From Tortispora ganteri (lineage: Eukaryota): a DNA stretch of 64,000 nt. The position numbers were made by a program, and so were the translations under genes. The stretch covers positions 62,001 to 126,000 of the forward strand of contig PPNB01000004.1 in the NCBI GenBank assembly GCA_003707115.1, read 5' to 3'. Shown piece by piece: positions 29,682 through 50,348 of this stretch. The number at the start of each line of letters is the position of its first letter. Positions within the stretch are counted from its first letter, which is position 1. The notes beneath the pieces were generated by a model. The model saw only the letters and a list, made by a program, of their open reading frames with translations, did no database searches and had not been told where the DNA came from.

Positions 29682-29716
29682 ACGCGTTAAAAGACCTACA
29701 AAGTCTTTGAACGCGT
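29682..29716. repeat. Inverted repeat, 14-bp arms (13/14 match) with a 7-bp asymmetric spacer; each arm has ACGCGT at its outer end
   Basis: ACGCGTTAAAAGAC-CTACAAA-GTCTTTGAACGCGT, ending 21 bp before the ATG at 29738. Confidence 0.85.
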
Positions 29717-29737
29717 GAAGAAGATTCTGTCGAGGAA

Positions 29738-32134
29738 ATGTCTTTTTCAACATCATTATCTACATCATACGAACAAGAAAATACGGATAAGGGTGTAGAT
29801 CCTGTCGATACTTCGCATACTTTGGATATCTCTACTGAAGAATCTAGGGCTCAATTGGCTCGCAGATTACTGTCGCAAGTCAATCTTAGTGCATCTTCCT
29901 CGCTCATACACCAGGCTGTGAACACCAGTAAGACATACGAACATCACGTTAGACATTACCGTAAATGGTGCGATGAAGTTTTCGCAAACGAAGATGTGCT
30001 AACGCGTTATTATCCCACTATGATCCAGATACGCGGCTATGTGGAGTATAGGCTGAATCATCCAGAATTTAGTTCAAATGGGAAACGGCCTGCTCCTAAA
30101 ACAATAGATGGAATTATTGCGGCACTAAAAGAGCACACTCGTTTTGAGAAAGATAAAATTGAAAGCGCAGGTAAGCGATGCCCTGTTTTGAGTGAACAGG
30201 AAGAATCATTCCAAGCTAAAGAGCTAAAGAAACTCCGGAGGCATTTCAGAAAACTGGCCGCCGAAGAAATGGAAAACGGCTACGAACTCCAGGATGCTAC
30301 TTCTCGAAAGGCGTATGTAGAGAAAGAGCTTATTGCGATTGTTAAATGGCTGTGTATGCAGCATGGACGCGAAGCACATTATGTTTCGATAGCGTCTATG
30401 GTGTTGACAGCTCATTCAGGAATGTACCGTGGAGACTCGATTCGGAAGATGAATATAGCTAGCTTAAGCGTATGGAGAGGTGTTATTAGCAATCGCTACT
30501 GTGATGCCATTAAGGTGACTACGACTGCTTCGAAGACAAACAAATTCGGCAGGACTGAAGAAACGCTGGCGTTACGTCACTTGGATCCTAGACGCTGTCC
30601 GGTCGCATTTTTGGGATACTACATGATCGAACGGTTCTATGTAGCCTGTGACAAGCTAATCCCATTTGCAGACCCTCGGGAATTCATTAAATGTAAGCTG
30701 TACCGACGCTACGGAACGGATAAGAAGCTAACCGAGCCCATGAATTTCAGATCACATTTCAAGCCTATTAAAGAATCCAAGATACAGCTTTCAATGACAT
30801 TTTACAAAATTATGTGCTCGAGCGAAAGTTCAGCTGCTAATGAAGCAATTCAAAATGGAGCTTCATATGGTTCAGTAATTAACCATGGTCAGTGGGGTAC
30901 TTCCAACGACACCATGAACAACGATTATTTGTTCGGAGACAATACTGCAACTCCATGTAAATTAGCTGGAATTGTGGGAAGCGAAAAGTATGTAATGGTT
31001 CGCGACGGCGTTCAACCGTCATTGGAGTTGTGCTTGAAAGTTTTCCCATTCATTGAAGAGTGGCATACGCTTATTGAGAATAACACGCTAAAAGAAAGGG
31101 TTAAAGAAGAATATCGGAGGTATGATCTTTCTCTCACTAACACGGCGCTTTTGGATTCACACGTTGCCAAGATCAAGACAGCTGTGGAACTGTTCATTTA
31201 TCTCGCTAAATGTGTGCTGCAAGATAGGATATTTCTAGAGAAGTGCGCTCCAGAATTGACTGAATTGCCGTCATTTAAGTCGAGTGCATTCCTTACAGAG
31301 GAATATGCTGAGTTCAGGAAGGAACAAGAGATATTTATCGCTAGTAGAGCTGTTATGCCGGAGGAAGAGTCTTCGGAAACGGTGCAAGGATCTTGTCCAT
31401 CTAGCAAACAAATTCACAACAATCAATTGTGTAGTACTTTGCAGGAGTTTTTACAAGAGCTGCGCGAGGACAGAGCAGCCAGGGCGGAGGAAAGAGCAGC
31501 CAGGGCGAAGGAAAGAGAGGAAGATAAAGAACGTGCCTTACAGTTTCAAAATCTGATCCTTGCGTCACTACAGCAGATATATACACATCCGATGCACCTT
31601 GAATCATCTCCGGGTTCTACCAGCGCGATAATGAGCCGAACATCTTACGCTTGCTCCAACGCTGATCAATATATTCTGCCAAGTAGTGCCGAATTGACGC
31701 AACCTGCTAGCAATCTACCTACAGTGACAAATCTTGAAGATAATGGACCTACAGAAGCAGTTACTTTGACAAGGAAAGACAAAGAGTTGATCGAATATAT
31801 GAAAGGAAGAGCATTTGTAAAACCGGTATCGATACGAGACATATGGTGGGAATATGCTCATGGCATAGCCGGTAAGCCACCACTTCGTGAAATGGAGAGC
31901 AAATACAAAACCTTATGGAGAGGTGGAGCACGTTCATCTCTTACTCGCACGTTCCGTCGCCGCAAGCGAATATACTCGGCCATAGAAAATGGCATATCAT
32001 CAGGGTTGAGTGAAGAAGAAGCAATTGAGAAGCTGCAACGCTTCTGTGCTCGTCCCACAGATCCCACTAAGCTGCGAGATCAAGCATGGTTTGATAGGGC
32101 TGATCTGATGCAATGTTTCGGCAGTCATACTTGA
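29738..32134 (+). CDS. Crypton (CryptonF)/Ndc10-like protein: tyrosine-recombinase-fold domain, coiled coil and C-terminal GCR1_C domain (copy 1)
   Basis: MYRGDSIR, SKTNKFGR, ALRH.DP..CPV, HGQW...MNNDYL, KVFPFIE, IWWEYAHG...KPPLREME.KY...WR......F.RRK.IY. Confidence 0.85.
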   Translation: MSFSTSLSTSYEQENTDKGVDPVDTSHTLDISTEESRAQLARRLLSQVNLSASSSLIHQAVNTSKTYEHHVRHYRKWCDEVFANEDVLTRYYPTMIQIRGYVEYRLNHPEFSSNGKRPAPKTIDGIIAALKEHTRFEKDKIESAGKRCPVLSEQEESFQAKELKKLRRHFRKLAAEEMENGYELQDATSRKAYVEKELIAIVKWLCMQHGREAHYVSIASMVLTAHSGMYRGDSIRKMNIASLSVWRGVISNRYCDAIKVTTTASKTNKFGRTEETLALRHLDPRRCPVAFLGYYMIERFYVACDKLIPFADPREFIKCKLYRRYGTDKKLTEPMNFRSHFKPIKESKIQLSMTFYKIMCSSESSAANEAIQNGASYGSVINHGQWGTSNDTMNNDYLFGDNTATPCKLAGIVGSEKYVMVRDGVQPSLELCLKVFPFIEEWHTLIENNTLKERVKEEYRRYDLSLTNTALLDSHVAKIKTAVELFIYLAKCVLQDRIFLEKCAPELTELPSFKSSAFLTEEYAEFRKEQEIFIASRAVMPEEESSETVQGSCPSSKQIHNNQLCSTLQEFLQELREDRAARAEERAARAKEREEDKERALQFQNLILASLQQIYTHPMHLESSPGSTSAIMSRTSYACSNADQYILPSSAELTQPASNLPTVTNLEDNGPTEAVTLTRKDKELIEYMKGRAFVKPVSIRDIWWEYAHGIAGKPPLREMESKYKTLWRGGARSSLTRTFRRRKRIYSAIENGISSGLSEEEAIEKLQRFCARPTDPTKLRDQAWFDRADLMQCFGSHT
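31472..31513 (+). repeat. 21-bp tandem duplication (RAARAEE/RAARAKE) within a coiled coil
   Basis: AGAGCAGCCAGGGCGGAGGAA followed by AGAGCAGCCAGGGCGAAGGAA. Confidence 0.9.
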
Positions 32135-32162
32135 CATAGGCATGATGCCTATGTCAAGTATG
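32126..32162. repeat. Perfect 18-bp inverted repeat with a 1-bp spacer, overlapping the stop codon of Crypton-like copy 1
   Basis: CATACTTGACATAGGCAT-G-ATGCCTATGTCAAGTATG. Confidence 0.97.
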
Positions 32163-32432
32163 GCCTCTAAAATCAAGTAGTATAGAGTCTAACAAGGATT
32201 ACAATTTAATATACATCTGTTTTATTAACTGAATGTCTCAATATCCGCTACCAGAGAGGATGCATGTAGGTTGCTAGGGACCTTGTCAGTGTCCTTTTTC
32301 GGTCTGGTCTATAAGTATAAGGATAAGTTTGCTTTGAACAAGTCGTTTTGCTTCCTTGTCGATTCCCAGGATTGTCCAAACGCCATAAACCCTGCATTAC
32401 TACTAAAAACAGGTCTTAGCAAAATTTGAGTA

Positions 32433-33269
32433 ATGTTGCCTCAAATTGTGCTACTGCTATGCGCAATTACGCAGTTTGTACACGCATGGTCTGAAAAGGA
32501 TTACGAGCTATTTGAATTGAAGGACGCTGTAGAGAAGGCCGAGGGAACAGGAGTGACATTCTATGACTGGCTCGATGTGTCGCCATACAGCAGCAACGAG
32601 GAGCTGACAAAATCGTACAGAAAGCTGTCCCGGAAGCTTCACCCGGACAAGGCACCCAAAAAGGGGAAGAAAGCTGCCAATGAACGATTCTCGAGGCTAT
32701 CTGTTGTGATAAGTATCCTCAGAGACCCCGAGATGCGTGAACGGTACGACTACTTTCTAAAGCATGGGTTCCCCAAGTGGAGAGGAACTGGCTACTACTA
32801 CAGACGTCTGCGTCCGGGTCTTGGATCTGTGCTAGTACTACTAGTCTTTCTGTTCAACTGGGCCCACTACGGAGTCATACGCATGAATGCGCGTGGACAC
32901 AGGCGACATATGCAATATTGTATTGATGCGGCTAGAGATATGGCTGAGTGGCCGCAAAAAGTGCAAACGCTCAAAAAGGTCCAGCTGTACAATGGGAAGG
33001 TGTTCTCGGTGAAGGCCAGTGGCAAAGTTTCATTATTAGAGATTGAAGACGGCGTTGAAGTGGAGTATCCGCTAGATACAGAAGAAATTCAGATGCCAAC
33101 CTGGCGAGACACATTTGTGTACCTACTCTATCGCAAGTTGTACAACAAATTGGCTAATTCACAAACCGGAGAGAAAAGCAAGGGGCATAGAGTCGGTTTA
33201 AAAGACGCGAGCAAACCTGCACCAAAACCATCTACGATCAAACGAAAGAAACCGAGCAAGAAAGCTTAA
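32433..33269 (+). CDS. ERJ5: ER J-domain co-chaperone
   Basis: Signal peptide, WSEKDYELFEL, HPDK, GFPKWRGTGYYY...RPG, one TM segment. Confidence 0.88.
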   Translation: MLPQIVLLLCAITQFVHAWSEKDYELFELKDAVEKAEGTGVTFYDWLDVSPYSSNEELTKSYRKLSRKLHPDKAPKKGKKAANERFSRLSVVISILRDPEMRERYDYFLKHGFPKWRGTGYYYRRLRPGLGSVLVLLVFLFNWAHYGVIRMNARGHRRHMQYCIDAARDMAEWPQKVQTLKKVQLYNGKVFSVKASGKVSLLEIEDGVEVEYPLDTEEIQMPTWRDTFVYLLYRKLYNKLANSQTGEKSKGHRVGLKDASKPAPKPSTIKRKKPSKKA

Positions 33270-44543: not shown

Positions 44544-47000
44544 CTAAGAAAGCTCTGGAGGCACGTTACCTGCATACAGGAACTTCAATGGCCGGGTTCT
44601 TTGGCCTGGAAACCTTCTGAAATCCTCGAGCATCTTGCAACATTGTTTCGCAGAGTATCCTTTTGATATACCTCTCTCTATAGCGCGGCATATTCTAAAC
44701 CTGCGGCTAAAAGACTTGTTCAAGGCTGTGCCATTTGGTCTCCACTTGTTCCCGTGCTGAAGTTCAAGCATTTTGACTGCAGGAAACCCATTTCGGCCCT
44801 TATAGTACTCTTCCCATATCTGTTCAACTGTTGTGGGAGACTTTATAAAACAAAATCTCTTTGCTTCGTCCAGGTTATGCCAATACGGACGATACGAGTC
44901 TGCAGTTCTCGGACTGCCTGCCTCTGGAGGCCTTTCATGTGTAGACGTTCCATCCGAATGAGAATTTCTACCTGGTACTTGTTCCGGCATTCTAAAAGTG
45001 CCCAAATCGACGCCATTCATTCTATTCAAAGACGCCATGTCCATACCTGTCAAGATGTTGTGTGCCGAATGAGTGTCTTGGTGACTCGACTCATCAAGGT
45101 GCTGTTCTTCTCGAGTCTGGACAACAAGGTGACTATTATCTGGAATATTGAAATGATTGAGGATACTCTTGAGCATCATTTTGTTCTGTTTCGACTCACT
45201 CACTTGCTGCCCCAGAAGAGCCTCAATGCGATCTAGCTGAGCAGATTGCCGTGTCGTATACAGCTCAAAATCATGCGCGTAAGTACGCATATTTGCTTCT
45301 ATGCGGTTCATACTAATCTGACTGTCCACCGCATGTTCTTTAAGGTCCATGCTATCTCGAACAACAATTTCCGGGTCGTTTCTGTGGACGAACTCTGTCT
45401 GTCTCTGGACAAACTCCGCATATTCCGGCGTCTTGAAAACGGGGTGTTGGAAAACCGGGTGAGTGTTATTCAACTCAGGAAACTTTTCTATCACAAACTT
45501 CTTATCTTGAAGTAAAACCTTTCGCAAATGTTGGAATAGTGAGACAACCTGTGTTACAAGCGTGCCATTGCCCTTTTCCGTGTCATCGATCACTTCGTGC
45601 AGAACGTTATCTTTTATCGCATCCACATACTTGTTGATAAAAGGAAATATCTGCCTCTGTAGATATTCAGGGGGATCTAAAGCAGCTCTAGGATTGAAGT
45701 ATGTGCCATTTTTAGGAAACCCTGCCAAAGAAAGTACCACAGTTCTCGGAATCGCATAAATGTAAGAATTTGTGAGAGCGCTGGACTTATCGCCAGAACT
45801 CCATCCACCAAAGCGCTCAATATCGTAAACAGATACACCATTCATCTCGGCCTCATGCGCAGCACACGCCCTAGATGAATGAGTGATATGGTCTGTTGAG
45901 ATATTCAGTTTATCCAACATAGCTTTCATAGGTAGGTAATGAGCTCGATAAGCTGACCTTTCTTCCTTGTCAGTTTGTTTCGCGTGGACTTTACGGCCAT
46001 CGGACCGCTCAGAAATGACTGCCTCGTAGTAGTAATGTCTTTTGCTTGTAAAATCAAGTGGTCTGTGTCCATTAATTTCGTATTTTTCAGCCATATGCAT
46101 TGCCAACCAGAAATGCACGCACCGCTCGACAGTTTTGTGTCTGAGGGCACATACGGTTTCCTTATGGCCACATTGATTTGTTTTAGAATATGTAGGAGTA
46201 CTAAAGATTGCAGTTTCGTCACCTACTGCAGCTATTGCACCGCACCGCCCAACGTAGAGAGTGATCAATCTTGTCTTCCGAAGGGAGTTTCCACTGCACA
46301 TGAAAGAATGACACGCAGCGATGCTAGCCGGCAGAGATGTCATGCTACGTCTGCTCATACTGGTATGGAGTAGATGGTCCATAATTTTGAGAAGGTCTTC
46401 AGTACTGTAAGCGCATCTATTTACGTAATCCGTGTGATCCATTACCTTGTCATGATGTATAACTTTCTTGTATTTCACGTTCCTTAAAAATTGCTTAACA
46501 TAGTCCCCTCTAGGTCCAGGCCACTCCGGAATCCCTTCTTTTTTCGCTTCGCGAACTTGTTCTTTGTGTAAGTACACCAAGGTACCTACATAATTGTCCA
46601 GTGTTCCGACCGCGTACGGCACTGCCATCACATTTCCAGATTCATCTGTACAATGCTTTTTGGTACCTGAGTCTTCTAGGTTCTTAAGAAAACTCAAAGC
46701 TTTGGCTTCAGTGACAATATATCTTTGTAGTCCAACTTTTTCCTGATAGATTTCATCGCAGAATGCATTCCAAGCCTTGATTTTAATATCATGATTTCTT
46801 TTGGTATTCTCGGGCATGAGACTACTCGACTCTTGAGCGACCTGCCTTTCTGCTTCTCGCTCGTAAATTTTAGCCCATCTCTCTGTAGCCACTTGCGCAT
46901 TTATCTCTAAAAGAGTGGCTCTGCTGACACTTGTCAATCTACCAAGCGGATCTCTTTGTTCCATCGGAGTTTCTCCTGCAACGGTACAAGGTGCTTGCAT
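44544..47000 (-). CDS. Crypton (CryptonF)/Ndc10-like protein: tyrosine-recombinase-fold domain plus GCR1_C (copy 2)
   Basis: PENTKRNH, VTEAKALSFL, SKTNQCG, ALRHK....C, THSSR, FGGW...LTNSY, LAGF, LQRQIFPF, LRKVLLQD, HPVFQHPVF, TVEQIWEEY..G....PAVK.LE..HG.KWR.......FSRR. Confidence 0.88.
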   Translation of the reverse strand: MQAPCTVAGETPMEQRDPLGRLTSVSRATLLEINAQVATERWAKIYEREAERQVAQESSSLMPENTKRNHDIKIKAWNAFCDEIYQEKVGLQRYIVTEAKALSFLKNLEDSGTKKHCTDESGNVMAVPYAVGTLDNYVGTLVYLHKEQVREAKKEGIPEWPGPRGDYVKQFLRNVKYKKVIHHDKVMDHTDYVNRCAYSTEDLLKIMDHLLHTSMSRRSMTSLPASIAACHSFMCSGNSLRKTRLITLYVGRCGAIAAVGDETAIFSTPTYSKTNQCGHKETVCALRHKTVERCVHFWLAMHMAEKYEINGHRPLDFTSKRHYYYEAVISERSDGRKVHAKQTDKEERSAYRAHYLPMKAMLDKLNISTDHITHSSRACAAHEAEMNGVSVYDIERFGGWSSGDKSSALTNSYIYAIPRTVVLSLAGFPKNGTYFNPRAALDPPEYLQRQIFPFINKYVDAIKDNVLHEVIDDTEKGNGTLVTQVVSLFQHLRKVLLQDKKFVIEKFPELNNTHPVFQHPVFKTPEYAEFVQRQTEFVHRNDPEIVVRDSMDLKEHAVDSQISMNRIEANMRTYAHDFELYTTRQSAQLDRIEALLGQQVSESKQNKMMLKSILNHFNIPDNSHLVVQTREEQHLDESSHQDTHSAHNILTGMDMASLNRMNGVDLGTFRMPEQVPGRNSHSDGTSTHERPPEAGSPRTADSYRPYWHNLDEAKRFCFIKSPTTVEQIWEEYYKGRNGFPAVKMLELQHGNKWRPNGTALNKSFSRRFRICRAIERGISKGYSAKQCCKMLEDFRRFPGQRTRPLKFLYAGNVPPELS

Positions 47001-47140: not shown

Positions 47141-47172
47141 ACGCGTGCTGGTAAATGCTATGATTTACGCGT
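47141..47172. promoter_or_regulatory. Twin ACGCGT (MCB-type) boxes upstream of Crypton-like copy 2
   Basis: ACGCGT at 47141-47146 and 47167-47172, 140-170 bp upstream of the ATG at 47000. Confidence 0.6.
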
Positions 47173-47294: not shown

Positions 47295-47323
47295 ACAATT
47301 GTAAGCGGTAAGCTTACAAGTGT
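47295..47323. repeat. Inverted repeat 12-5-12 (one mismatch) containing TAAGCGGTAAG, which recurs at 44507-44517
   Basis: ACAATTGTAAGC-GGTAA-GCTTACAAGTGT. Confidence 0.7.
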
Positions 47324-48560: not shown

Positions 48561-50348
48561 ATGAATCTTCTGACGGTACAGGAAAATGCAACAATAAGTT
48601 ATACCAATTGGAACTTTACTTCGGATAAGTTTCAAGGATCTGCGTCTTTGAGACCCACTATCCAAATGTCTACTCCTTCTGACACAGACAATAGTCAATT
48701 TTCATTGTTATATATGCAAACACCTATTGCTATAAGCATGGACAATCAAACAGTTACTTCGACCGGAAAACATTTAGTTAGTTTCACTCCTTCCAAAGAT
48801 GAAGACAACGTCCTAAAATCATACGAAAGTCAATCATTCTCTACGGGTAGCCAAGTATTGTTGCAAGTCCCGGTATCACCTTCTGATCATTCCGTTGTAA
48901 ATTCTAATATTCCAAAATTTAATGGGTATCTCTTGGTAAATCGCTCAACAGTCTCTGCTGCTCCAATAGAGACACATGATGGTTCTATGTTCAATAACTC
49001 TCAGATTGCGTCTGCTAATAATTTAACAGAGAGTTCGAAGATAGCTTATTCACCTGCTACGACCAACAACCTATCGGCGCCAGTTGTCTTCAACTTAGGC
49101 TTTTCAGCTACGTCAGGTAAATCTGTATACAAGTTTGCTAACGACTCTTCTTTGATGCAGAATAATAATAACATGGGAATCTCAAAGAGTGACGGCAGTA
49201 ATAGCTCATTATTTACACCGGTTGTATCGAGAAACATGATGAAACATTCGAGTATACACCAGAGCAAGCTTGCGAACGCCACACAGTCAAAAATTGCGAA
49301 TGTCACTGAGATCACCAAGTCAATCCCCTTTGCAGTTGTTTCATTGGTAACAGAAAGTGTATTTAACACTACTATCAAGGAGTCTGTCAATGCTACCAGT
49401 TTCATCGTCGAGGTTCCGAAGAGGTACGTAAACAGTTCACTCCATACTCAAGCGGTATATACAAGCACAGTGAACAGCTCGGACATTCATGATGGCAAAT
49501 ATATAAGCGCCACGAAGAGTCCGATTGAGGTCGATGCCACTGGAGTGGCAAATGCGACTTTATTAAGCCTTGTTAATGTCACTGAGATAACCAAATCAAT
49601 CCCTTTTGCAGTTGTTTCATTGGTGACGGAGAGTGTTGAATACACTACTATCAAGGGGTCTGCCAATGATACCACTTACAGCGGCGAGGTTTCGAAGAGG
49701 TACGTAAACAGTTCACTCCAAAACCCAACGGTATATACATGCACAGTGAACAGCTCGGACATTTACGATGGCAAATATATAAGCGCCACGAAGAGTCCGA
49801 TCGAGGTCGATGCCACTGGAGTGGCAAATACGACTTTATTAAGCCTTGTTAATGTCACTGAGATAAGCAAGTCAATCCCTTTTACAGTTGTTTCATTAGT
49901 GACGGAGAGAGTATTCAATACTACTGTCGAGGAGTCTGCCAATGCTACCAGTTTCATCGTCGAGGTTTCGAAGAGGTACGTAAACAATACACTCCAAACT
50001 CCAGCGGTATATACAAGCACAGTTAACAGCTCGGACATTCACTATGGCAAACATATTAACGCCACGAAGAACTGGACAGACGTCGATACCACTGGAGCGG
50101 CTAATACCAGTGTATTTGCAATGACATCTTCTTCATCAAATAACTTTGCAACACTATCACTTTGGACTGGTGAACGCGCCATATACAACAACAGTAACAG
50201 ATCATTAATTGCACCATTAGTTTCAACAACCATAGTGAATAATTCGGTGATTTATCATAGCAATGTTGAGAATGCGGTCAAGCCTAGGTCAAAAAATAAT
50301 GGAGTGCTTAGTCTAACGACCATAGCTGTTGAAACTTCAACAAATTAG
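48561..50348 (+). CDS. Ser/Thr/Asn-rich protein with three ~92-aa internal repeats (cell-surface-like, possibly degenerate)
   Basis: 595-aa ORF with many N-x-S/T sequons; no N-terminal signal peptide or GPI tail visible. Confidence 0.65.
   Translation: MNLLTVQENATISYTNWNFTSDKFQGSASLRPTIQMSTPSDTDNSQFSLLYMQTPIAISMDNQTVTSTGKHLVSFTPSKDEDNVLKSYESQSFSTGSQVLLQVPVSPSDHSVVNSNIPKFNGYLLVNRSTVSAAPIETHDGSMFNNSQIASANNLTESSKIAYSPATTNNLSAPVVFNLGFSATSGKSVYKFANDSSLMQNNNNMGISKSDGSNSSLFTPVVSRNMMKHSSIHQSKLANATQSKIANVTEITKSIPFAVVSLVTESVFNTTIKESVNATSFIVEVPKRYVNSSLHTQAVYTSTVNSSDIHDGKYISATKSPIEVDATGVANATLLSLVNVTEITKSIPFAVVSLVTESVEYTTIKGSANDTTYSGEVSKRYVNSSLQNPTVYTCTVNSSDIYDGKYISATKSPIEVDATGVANTTLLSLVNVTEISKSIPFTVVSLVTERVFNTTVEESANATSFIVEVSKRYVNNTLQTPAVYTSTVNSSDIHYGKHINATKNWTDVDTTGAANTSVFAMTSSSSNNFATLSLWTGERAIYNNSNRSLIAPLVSTTIVNNSVIYHSNVENAVKPRSKNNGVLSLTTIAVETSTN
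49299..50110 (+). repeat. Tandem coding repeat, 276-bp period, about 3 copies
   Basis: Units begin AATGTCACTGAGAT at 49299, 49575 and 49851. Confidence 0.95.

What the first reader, a model, noticed from the sequence alone, without database searches (positions are those of the whole stretch)
32126..32162. Perfect 37-bp palindrome on the stop codon of Crypton-like copy 1
Seen: 18-bp arms with zero mismatches and a 1-nt centre; the TGA (32132-32134) lies in the left arm. This is the longest perfect inverted repeat I noticed in the window. With the 5' site, the ORF is bracketed almost exactly by two dyad elements. Inference: it could be an element end, a cruciform or hairpin substrate (recombinase-fold telomere resolvases act on palindromes), an mRNA hairpin affecting termination or readthrough, or a recent template-switch scar.
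Basis: partly seen in the sequence, partly recalled or inferred. Interest (0 to 1): 0.7.

Follow-up and report, generated by a model that had tools for sequence, protein, structure and literature searches.

The report
Perfect palindrome on a yeast stop codon
A real, flawless 37-base palindrome sits on the stop codon of a recombinase-derived yeast gene, but its closest relative carries only a flawed version, so it is most likely a recent DNA-copying accident of a known kind and not a working signal.

Summary
Window 32126-32162 is a perfect palindrome with 18-nt arms and one centre base, and the TGA of ORF 29738-32134 lies in its left arm. The next-best palindrome in the window has 10-nt arms, and shuffles reach 8-11.

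An independent contig built from public reads (depth 84.8) spans the palindrome without a difference there, so an assembler artefact is unlikely.

The gene is Crypton-derived (NDC10_II plus GCR1_C). It comes from a yeast close to Tortispora caseinolytica. It has lost the H and R of the recombinase HxxR box.

The closest copy in a sister organism (B) follows the window to 32147. It then lacks CCTATG (32148-32153), the six bases that complement CATAGG in the left arm, and reads A where the window needs G at 32162. The window copy also has its own 3-nt deletion two bases after the right arm.

The arm has no other copy in the window, and there is no Rfam family match.

Best reading (about 0.55): an older quasi-palindrome was made perfect by template switching. 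This is a documented yeast mutation type, seen with 16-bp arms in nature and 18-bp arms in experiments.

Open points:
- The letters of the second same-genome copy inside the palindrome could not be read.
- Polarity is incomplete.
- Three strong dyads cluster within 2.8 kb.

Interest is low to moderate.

The parts
32126..32162 (.). Perfect 37-bp palindrome: left arm 32126-32143, centre G 32144, right arm 32145-32162
   Evidence: DNA hairpin -19.6 kcal/mol, z -8.7, 0 of 200 shuffles as good. RNA context -38.9 kcal/mol, z -5.5.
32132..32134 (+). TGA stop codon of the Crypton-derived ORF, inside the left arm. Read through in frame, 11 more codons follow to TAA at 32168-32170.
   Evidence: the readthrough was read directly from the sequence.
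32148..32153 (.). CCTATG of the right arm (complement of CATAGG, 32135-32140). It is absent from the closest copy in sister organism B. Because of the flanking ATG repeats the gap could equally be placed up to 3 nt to the left.
   Evidence: X3 record 17 fits up to 32147. Its loose end then matches the window from 32154 onward (24 of 27 aligned letters by my hand alignment, with one 3-nt insertion).
32162..32165 (.). Junction after the right arm. G 32162 (pairs with C 32126) reads A in B. Between 32164 and 32165 the window copy lacks 3 nt that both B and the second same-genome copy V carry.
   Evidence: table 7 (loose ends of X1/X2 at 32164 and of X3 at 32147), aligned by hand.
29738..32134 (+). 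Crypton-derived gene, 798 aa (P0001). NDC10_II at aa 226-303 and GCR1_C at aa 695-768. Catalytic R236, K, W386 and Y397 are kept; the HxxR box reads MCSSE.
29682..29716 (.). 5' dyad: 14-nt arms, 1 mismatch, 7-nt spacer, with an ACGCGT at each outer end. It ends 21 nt before the ATG.
   Evidence: DNA fold -12.2 kcal/mol, z -5.1.
32417..32453 (.). Third dyad: 14-nt arms, 1 mismatch, 9-nt spacer that holds the ATG (32433) of the downstream DnaJ-domain gene.
   Evidence: -9.3 kcal/mol, z -3.7; Pfam DnaJ for 32433-33269.
44544..47000 (-). Crypton-derived copy 2, 818 aa, 24% identical to copy 1, with the full recombinase residue set (R, K, HSSR, W, Y). No palindrome at its stop codon.

Best explanation
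The palindrome is a mutational product. An older imperfect inverted repeat (quasi-palindrome) straddled the stop codon and the start of the 3' UTR of this gene family. In the window's copy the right arm was re-synthesised using the left arm as template. This would happen by template switching of a DNA polymerase, either by fold-back of the nascent strand or by a switch to the sister strand, during replication or during repair synthesis. One such event would add the six bases that complement CATAGG, set G opposite C 32126, and leave a small deletion where synthesis returned to the normal template. The stop codon lies in the left arm, so on this reading it belongs to the template arm and the protein was not changed. 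What is shown: the perfect palindrome, the imperfect version in the nearest relative, and a window-specific indel at the arm's edge. What is inferred: the direction of change for the 6 nt, a single event, and the absence of function.
For: 1. The arms are perfect over 18 bp, while the same stretch differs by 16 letters in 133 from the second same-genome copy V and by 31 in 548 from organism B (table 8). An old unselected palindrome should have picked up mismatches.
2. B's contig (X3 record 17) fits to 32147. It then continues with letters matching window 32154 onward, so it lacks exactly CCTATG, the complement of CATAGG in the left arm. It also has A where the window has the pairing G at 32162 (table 7).
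3. B still has the outer 8-bp pairing and the central CAT-G-ATG. That is a quasi-palindrome, the known substrate of this mutation type.
4. V and B both carry 3 extra nt between window 32164 and 32165, so the window copy has a derived deletion 2 nt after the right arm.
5. The arm has no other copy in the window: 3 matches to the 15-mer at <=3 mismatches, 2 of them the palindrome's own arms, against 2.03 expected.
6. There is no Rfam family: a single sub-threshold match of 26 bits against a gathering score of 60.
7. Precedent in budding yeast. PMC8604942 (abstract and passages) reports 30 S. cerevisiae genes with such events, including REG2, where 5-bp arms became a perfect 16-bp-arm repeat. bioRxiv 10.1101/2023.08.09.552703 (abstract) shows an 18-bp inverted repeat with a 4-bp insertion in one arm being perfected by template switching during gene conversion. 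PMC8794818 (abstract) shows that the mechanism can create perfect stems in one event.
8. The window copy shows a mosaic relation to V: 260 and 55 nt are identical, between patches of about 9-15% difference. This fits gene conversion, the setting in which such mutations are reported to be frequent.
Against: 1. Polarity of the 6 nt is not settled. V was laid without a gap through 32164, so it probably carries those six positions. By plain parsimony B's gap could be a slippage deletion between the two ATGs.
2. The letters of V and B inside the palindrome were not shown: differences within 30 nt of a piece's end are not listed, and 18 more rows were cut. By my count from the totals, V has 3-8 differences in 32135-32164. 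That is not clearly above its local background of about 15%. Compensating changes that keep V a palindrome cannot be excluded.
3. A quasi-palindrome appears in all three copies. The window's only 3 dyads with arms >=14 nt and <=1 mismatch (0.15 expected, at most 2 in 40 shuffles) all lie within 2.8 kb around this gene. A single accident does not explain that.
4. X1 and X2 may be the window's own read set, so no second strain has been seen.
Confidence: 0.55

Rival explanations
1. A selected hairpin or dyad element of this gene family, kept at the stop codon and 3' UTR boundary. It could act as an RNA stem that affects 3'-end formation, mRNA stability or localisation, or as a DNA site for a dimeric protein. 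The window copy would carry its best version.
For: A related inverted repeat is present in all three copies seen: window, V (laid ungapped through it) and B (outer 8 bp plus the central 3 bp). The stem is very stable. Dyads are over-represented next to this gene, 3 observed against 0.15 expected, and a fourth dyad with 12-nt arms lies upstream of copy 2.
Against: B's copy has lost 6 nt of one arm with no sign of compensation in what could be read. Copy 2 has no comparable repeat at its stop codon. The copies differ by only about 6-15%, so shared presence is weak evidence of constraint. There is no Rfam match. The dyads share no sequence with each other.
Confidence: 0.2
2. A recombination or binding site for a Crypton-family tyrosine recombinase. 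Read as 15-bp inverted arms around a 7-bp core (CATGATG), the site would be acted on in trans by a catalytically intact paralogue such as copy 2, and would mark a mobile or invertible unit.
For: The geometry resembles tyrosine-recombinase sites, described as 11-13-bp inverted repeats around 6-8 bp in PMC3212892 (passage). Copy 2 keeps R, K, HxxR, W and Y. In B the laid copy and the DnaJ gene lie mid-contig on two different contigs, so B has no copy beside its DnaJ gene and family positions differ between sister organisms.
Against: The adjacent gene itself has lost H and R of the HxxR box. No partner site or half-site exists in 64 kb. Homology with V and B continues 27-30 nt or more beyond the site, so it is not an element end. 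Cryptons are described as lacking terminal inverted repeats and using 4-6-bp direct repeats (PMC3212892). The site is not intact in B.
Confidence: 0.07
3. A signal for stop-codon readthrough or altered termination at the TGA.
For: The TGA is followed by C and sits in a strong stem. An in-frame 11-codon extension to TAA at 32168 exists.
Against: The stop lies inside the 5' arm, so the stem must already be melted when the ribosome reaches it. Known stimulatory structures lie some bases downstream of the stop (recalled, not tested). The extension is simply the palindrome read in frame. B's 6-nt gap keeps the frame but removes two of the extension's codons.
Confidence: 0.03
4. An assembly or sequencing artefact.
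For: Short fold-back artefacts do occur, and X1/X2 may be the same reads as the window's assembly.
Against: An independent k-mer assembly gives a single 5595-nt contig at depth 84.8 straight through it, with no bubble. That contig differs from the window at 32368, so it is not a copy of the assembly.
Confidence: 0.02

Closest known systems
Quasi-palindrome-associated template-switch mutations in budding yeast. Natural example: REG2 in one S. cerevisiae strain, 5-bp arms turned into a perfect 16-bp-arm repeat (PMC8604942). Experimental example: an 18-bp inverted repeat with a 4-bp insertion perfected during gene conversion (bioRxiv 10.1101/2023.08.09.552703).
   Same: A perfect inverted repeat with a very short spacer in one lineage, an imperfect version with an indel in one arm in the nearest relative, arm length 16-18 bp, a budding yeast, at the end of a coding sequence.
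   Different: Polarity is not proven here because the outgroup letters were not visible. The event overlaps a stop codon and UTR rather than internal codons. It is accompanied by two other strong dyads nearby.
CryptonF transposons and Crypton-derived yeast genes (Gcr1, Cbf2/Ndc10, Hot1/Msn1, Cdg1; Kojima and Jurka 2011, PMC3212892)
   Same: The adjacent ORF has the recombinase-like core (Pfam NDC10_II) followed by a C-terminal GCR1_C domain. The catalytic box is lost, as reported for Cbf2 and Gcr1.
   Different: Cryptons are described without terminal inverted repeats or palindromes. The two window copies are 24% identical rather than recent insertions. The palindrome is not at a homology boundary.
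Core sites of tyrosine recombinases (loxP, FRT and dif type; names recalled) and hairpin-telomere resolvase targets
   Same: Inverted arms around a short central region.
   Different: There is no partner site. The central 7 bp are symmetric apart from the middle base. The site is not conserved in the sister organism. The neighbouring protein is catalytically dead. The location is internal to a chromosome, not a replicon end.

Membership tests
Template-switch (quasi-palindrome) mutation product | Perfect inverted repeat in the focal lineage | tested here: met
   18/18 pairing, 1-nt centre.
Template-switch (quasi-palindrome) mutation product | Imperfect inverted repeat at the homologous site in close relatives | tested here: met
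   Organism B's copy lacks CCTATG and has A at 32162 but keeps the outer 8-bp and central 3-bp pairing (table 7). B's letters at 32118-32147 were not listed.
Template-switch (quasi-palindrome) mutation product | Clustered multi-base differences confined to one arm and fully explained by copying the other arm | tested here: inconclusive
   The 6-nt difference, the G/A at 32162 and the 3-nt deletion all lie in or next to the right arm. However, differences within 30 nt of a piece's end, plus 18 further rows, were not shown.
Template-switch (quasi-palindrome) mutation product | Direction of change fixed by an outgroup | tested here: inconclusive
   The 3-nt deletion is derived in the window copy, since V and B share the longer state. 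For the 6 nt, V seems to side with the window (laid ungapped to 32164).
Crypton (CryptonF) transposon | Tyrosine recombinase with catalytic R-H-R-Y | tested here: not met
   In alignment A1 (15 sequences) the window protein keeps R236 and Y397 but has C and E in place of the H and R of the HxxR box. Copy 2 and P0002 keep HSSR.
Crypton (CryptonF) transposon | C-terminal GCR1_C DNA-binding domain | tested here: met
   Pfam PF12550, E 2.1e-19, aa 695-768.
Crypton (CryptonF) transposon | Several near-identical insertions bounded by 4-6-bp direct repeats | not testable with these tools
   No genome is held. Within the window the two copies are 24% identical. A second copy V exists in the same organism but only 30 letters of its flank were visible.
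Tyrosine-recombinase core site | Two inverted protein-binding arms around a 6-8-bp crossover region | tested here: met
   It can be read as 15-bp arms plus the 7-bp CATGATG. This shows geometry only.
Tyrosine-recombinase core site | A partner site with which to recombine | tested here: not met
   No other match to the arm beyond chance in 64 kb. The rest of the genome was not searchable.
Tyrosine-recombinase core site | Site kept intact in relatives that keep the gene | tested here: not met
   B's copy lacks 6 nt of one arm.
Any curated RNA family (Rfam 15) | Match at or above the family's gathering score | tested here: not met
   Only STnc380, 26 bits against a gathering score of 60, E 0.047.

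The most novel reading that the evidence does not exclude
The palindrome and the two other strong dyads beside this gene would be working DNA sites for Crypton-derived proteins. The 15+7+15 palindrome would be a recombination or binding site used in trans by a catalytically intact paralogue such as copy 2. The differing position of family copies between sister organisms would then reflect recent recombinase-driven movement. That would be the first sign of Crypton-type activity in budding yeasts, where Kojima and Jurka (PMC3212892) reported finding no insertions.
Probability: 0.07. Interest if true: 0.75.

Novelty: new member of a known kind. Interest (0 to 1): 0.3.

Why it matters
If the reading is right, this is a clean natural example outside Saccharomyces of template switching building an 18-bp-arm perfect palindrome in one step, on a stop codon. 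It also cautions against reading a striking palindrome beside a recombinase-like gene as that enzyme's substrate.

Two side results may be of more use. Tortispora-like yeasts carry a small Crypton-derived gene family whose copies differ in position, intactness and catalytic residues between close relatives. Three statistically unusual dyads also cluster around one member. Testing whether a burst of repair synthesis or a shared binding protein explains that cluster would be straightforward once the relatives' sequences are aligned.

Tried and rejected
- **Whole-genome search for other copies:** no genome is held for this window.
- **Exact look-up of 7 window proteins:** 0 of 7 are in the collection, so the source organism is not annotated there.
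- **Earlier findings of this scan:** three look-ups by place (relatives), genome and sequence all returned nothing.
- **RNA evidence:** no RNA holder was listed among the 6 runs, so expression, 3' end and strand could not be examined.
- **Read laying limits:** Its tables hide differences near piece ends and cut 18 rows. The letters of V and B inside the palindrome therefore stay unknown, and the parts of the gap 32174-32419 not covered by B say nothing.
- **Metagenome scan with the C-terminal 177 aa:** 599 pattern matches, none a relative.
- **Protein searches for a relative's C-terminus up to the stop codon:** these found only the T. caseinolytica fragments P0002 and P0003. Both end before the palindrome region.
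- **Whole-window repeat search:** no terminal repeats around the gene and no shared flank between copies 1 and 2; only chance-level short matches.
- **Rfam:** nothing at threshold.
- **Literature:** 'Tortispora' plus 'Crypton' gave 0 papers. 'Crypton' + 'Saccharomycotina' + 'transposable elements' gave 7 papers, 6 listed; I saw only the listing for all of these except PMC3212892. 'Tortispora caseinolytica' + 'transpos' gave 6 papers, listing only. None of the listed titles or abstracts concerns this locus.
- **Telomere-resolvase target:** rejected, because the site is internal to a 64-kb chromosomal stretch with ordinary genes on both sides.
- **Rnt1-type RNase III substrate:** rejected from recalled knowledge, because the loop is not an AGNN tetraloop. 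Not tested.
Full report
**The observation**

Window 32126-32162 reads as two 18-nt arms that are 100% complementary around a single centre base. The ORF 29738-32134 (+, 798 aa, P0001) ends ...GSHT* with its TGA at 32132-32134, inside the left arm.

The 37-mer occurs only here, with 0.00 expected in 100 shuffles. A scan for perfect palindromes with arms >=10 and loops <=8 finds two in 64 kb: this one, and one with 10-nt arms at 2077-2098. In 20 dinucleotide shuffles the longest arm was 8-11.

As single-stranded DNA it folds at -19.6 kcal/mol (z -8.7). As RNA in context it folds at -38.9 kcal/mol (z -5.5).

**Is it in the reads?**

Six public runs were listed. Two of them, X1 and X2 (organism A), hold 0.92 of the sampled words, and X3 (organism B) holds 0.07.

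Laid on 31600-32800 at 80% likeness, a 5595-nt Logan contig of X1 at depth 84.8 (the same in X2) covers 32032-32800. It has one other letter, at 32368, and none in the palindrome. No bubble opens there.

X1 and X2 give nearly identical figures and may be one data set. They may also be the window's own source. This rules out an assembler artefact but is not a second strain.

**The gene and the organism**

P0001 has Pfam NDC10_II (aa 226-303, E 1.8e-8) and GCR1_C (aa 695-768, E 2.1e-19). A second ORF, 44544-47000 (-), has the same pair of domains but is only 24% identical, 189 of 792. The neighbours are ordinary yeast genes: a kinase, DnaJ, UPRTase, DUF1688, AP-mu and Mmc1.

The only close proteins in the large collections are two from Tortispora caseinolytica NRRL Y-17796:
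- P0002, 647 aa, 87% identical over aa 12-606.
- P0003, 119 aa, 89% identical over aa 632-720. It then continues in another frame of the window's sequence.

That species' copy is therefore annotated in at least two pieces and stops before the palindrome region.

None of 7 window proteins is present exactly in the collection. The window comes from an unannotated relative.

A full-library search gave 462 homologues at E <= 0.001, 104 at <= 1e-10 and 5 at <= 1e-30.

In an alignment of 15 of these sequences, the window protein keeps the first Arg (R236), the Lys of SKTN, W386 and Y397. It has MCSSE where P0002 and copy 2 have THSSR. The H and R of the tyrosine-recombinase HxxR box are gone.

The architecture matches CryptonF proteins and the Crypton-derived yeast genes described by Kojima and Jurka (PMC3212892, passages). 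That paper also reports that Cryptons have no terminal inverted repeats and that no insertions were found in Saccharomycotina.

Among the listed differences between B and the window, the last 180 codons of this gene show 13 synonymous and 12 non-synonymous changes. The DnaJ gene shows 12 and 2 (25 and 14 of the listed rows, with further rows hidden). Within GCR1_C most changes are synonymous. The gene is therefore constrained, at least in its DNA-binding domain, and is better called a Crypton-derived gene than a transposon copy.

**What the relatives show at the palindrome**

*Organism B.* Its contig (record 17, 94.8 kb) fits the window from 31600 to 32147 with 31 other letters and no gap, then runs on 'unlike'.
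- Read by eye, the 30-letter loose end matches the window from 32154 onward, 24 of 27 aligned letters, with one 3-nt insertion.
- B therefore lacks six bases, CCTATG at 32148-32153. The flanking ATG repeats make the exact placement ambiguous by 3 nt. These six bases are exactly the complement of CATAGG in the left arm.
- B also has A where the window has G at 32162, the partner of C 32126.
- B retains an 8-bp outer pairing and the central CAT-G-ATG. That makes it a quasi-palindrome.

*Organism A, second copy (V).* It has depth 36-47 and forms bubbles against the window copy.
- It is identical over 31676-31935 and 32007-32061.
- It shows 7, 10 and 16 other letters in the three stretches between.
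- It was laid without a gap through 32164. Its loose end then matches the window from 32162 (24 of 30), which means 3 extra bases.
- B has the same 3 extra bases at the same place, so the window copy carries a derived 3-nt deletion two bases after the right arm.

*What could not be read.* Differences within 30 nt of a piece's end are not listed and 18 further rows were cut. From the totals (27 counted places against 35 differences by record for X1), V has between 3 and 8 differences in 32135-32164. That is not clearly above its local background of about 15%. Whether V is imperfect or compensated is unknown.

**Interpretation**

The arms are flawless, while the same stretch differs by 6-15% between copies. 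Either they were made alike recently or they are kept alike by selection.

The nearest relative has a version broken by an indel, plus a mismatch, both of which the window 'repairs'. The window also has a lineage-specific indel at the arm's edge.

This is the pattern of quasi-palindrome-associated template switching. The literature documents it in budding yeast:
- PMC8604942 (abstract and passages) reports significant cases in 30 of 68 S. cerevisiae genes examined. One is REG2, where 5-bp arms became a perfect 16-bp-arm repeat through seven point changes.
- The Sugawara et al. preprint (abstract) shows an 18-bp inverted repeat with a 4-bp insertion in one arm being perfected by template switching during gene conversion. 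It states that mutation during homologous recombination is about 1000 times more frequent than during replication.
- PMC8794818 (abstract) shows that the mechanism can build or mend perfect stems in a single event.
- PMC3820800 was seen only as a search listing.

The mosaic identity between the window copy and V fits gene conversion acting on this gene. That would supply such repair synthesis, but this link is inference.

I put this reading at about 0.55.

**Against it**

V probably carries the six positions. B's gap could therefore be a slippage deletion between the two ATGs of an already long palindrome.

A related repeat in all three copies, together with the dyad cluster, leaves room for a selected element (0.2).

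**The other readings**

- *Element end:* not supported. Homology with V and B continues at least 27-30 nt beyond 32162.
- *Recombinase site:* the 15+7+15 geometry is compatible with the general description of such sites in PMC3212892, and copy 2 keeps all catalytic residues. Against this, the adjacent gene is catalytically dead, there is no partner or half-site in 64 kb (3 matches at <=3 mismatches, 2 of them the arms themselves, 2.03 expected), and B's site is not intact. Probability 0.07.
- *Readthrough:* an 11-codon in-frame extension to TAA at 32168 exists. The stop lies within the 5' arm, so the stem is melted at termination, and the extension is only the palindrome read in frame. Probability 0.03.
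- *Artefact:* 0.02.
- *Known RNA family:* none.

**The bracketing dyads**

29682-29716 has 14-nt arms with 1 mismatch and a 7-nt spacer, carries ACGCGT at each outer end, and ends 21 nt before the ATG.

A scan for arms >=14 with <=1 mismatch and spacer <=10 finds 3 sites in the window: this one, the palindrome, and 32417-32453 around the DnaJ start codon. Expectation is 0.15, with at most 2 in 40 shuffles. All three lie within 2.8 kb.

With arms >=12, 5 sites are found against 1.35 expected. One of them is 47295-47323, upstream of copy 2.

The dyads share no sequence, so they are not a pair of ends. B's loose end before 32428 shows two substitutions and one extra base in the left arm of the DnaJ dyad, so that dyad too may be better in organism A.

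A local burst of template switching during a repair event, or binding sites for a dimeric protein, are both open. I could not separate them.

**Position of the family copies**

In B the copy laid on 31600-32147 and the DnaJ gene laid on 32428-32800 lie in the middle of two different contigs, 94.8 kb and 30.9 kb. B therefore has no copy at 80% likeness or better next to its DnaJ gene.

The window copy was either inserted in A's line or lost in B's. The listed rows in which V differs from the window are all shared with B. V-only rows exist, however (at least 4 in 31936-32006 by count), and were cut from the table.

**Verdict**

The palindrome is real and exceptional in its statistics. Its most likely origin is an ordinary, documented mutational process acting on an older quasi-palindrome. 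It is a new member of a known kind, of low to moderate interest.

Noticed in passing
window 29682-29716 and 47141-47172: Both Crypton-derived genes have a pair of ACGCGT hexamers 26-29 nt apart in their upstream regions: 29682 and 29711, inside the 5' dyad; 47141 and 47167, 141-172 nt before copy 2's ATG. The window holds 11 such hexamers against 7.09 expected. ACGCGT is the cell-cycle MCB/MBF box of S. cerevisiae (recalled, not tested), which would suggest host-type G1/S regulation.
   Followed up: partly
window 32417-32453: A dyad with 14-nt arms (1 mismatch) holds the ATG of the DnaJ-domain gene in its 9-nt spacer. In organism B the left arm differs by two substitutions and one extra base (loose end before 32428). 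It could be a translational stem or another homogenised repeat.
   Followed up: partly
window 29682-32453: The window's only 3 dyads with arms >=14 nt and <=1 mismatch (expected 0.15) fall within 2.8 kb around one gene. A fourth, with 12-nt arms, lies at 47295-47323 upstream of copy 2.
   Followed up: partly
window 44544-47000 (-): Copy 2 keeps the complete tyrosine-recombinase residue set (R, K, HSSR, W, Y) together with GCR1_C. It may be a still-active or recently domesticated recombinase in a budding yeast.
   Followed up: partly
P0002 and P0003 (T. caseinolytica), homologous to window 29771-31900: The close homologue in T. caseinolytica is annotated as two ORFs of 647 and 119 aa. The first has a divergent tail from about aa 607 of the window protein. 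The second changes frame after REME, at a place where the window has a direct ATGGAG...ATGGAG repeat. The copy looks broken there.
   Followed up: partly
window 31600-32164, runs X1/X2: Organism A has a second copy of this gene (depth 36-47 against 73-100). It is identical to the window over 260 and 55 nt and 9-15% different in between, a mosaic that suggests gene conversion. In organism B the homologous copy is not beside the DnaJ gene.
   Followed up: partly
window 49294-50121: Three tandem copies of a 276-nt unit (89% and 83% identical to the first) lie inside ORF 48561-50348, which has no Pfam match.
   Followed up: no
window 31466-31507: A 21-nt tandem duplication (95% identical) inside the Crypton-derived ORF encodes the repeated EDRAARA/EERAARA segment.
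   Followed up: no
window 32368: The read-derived contigs of X1 and X2 have G where the window has A, at full depth 84.8. This is either an assembly error or a strain difference.
   Followed up: no
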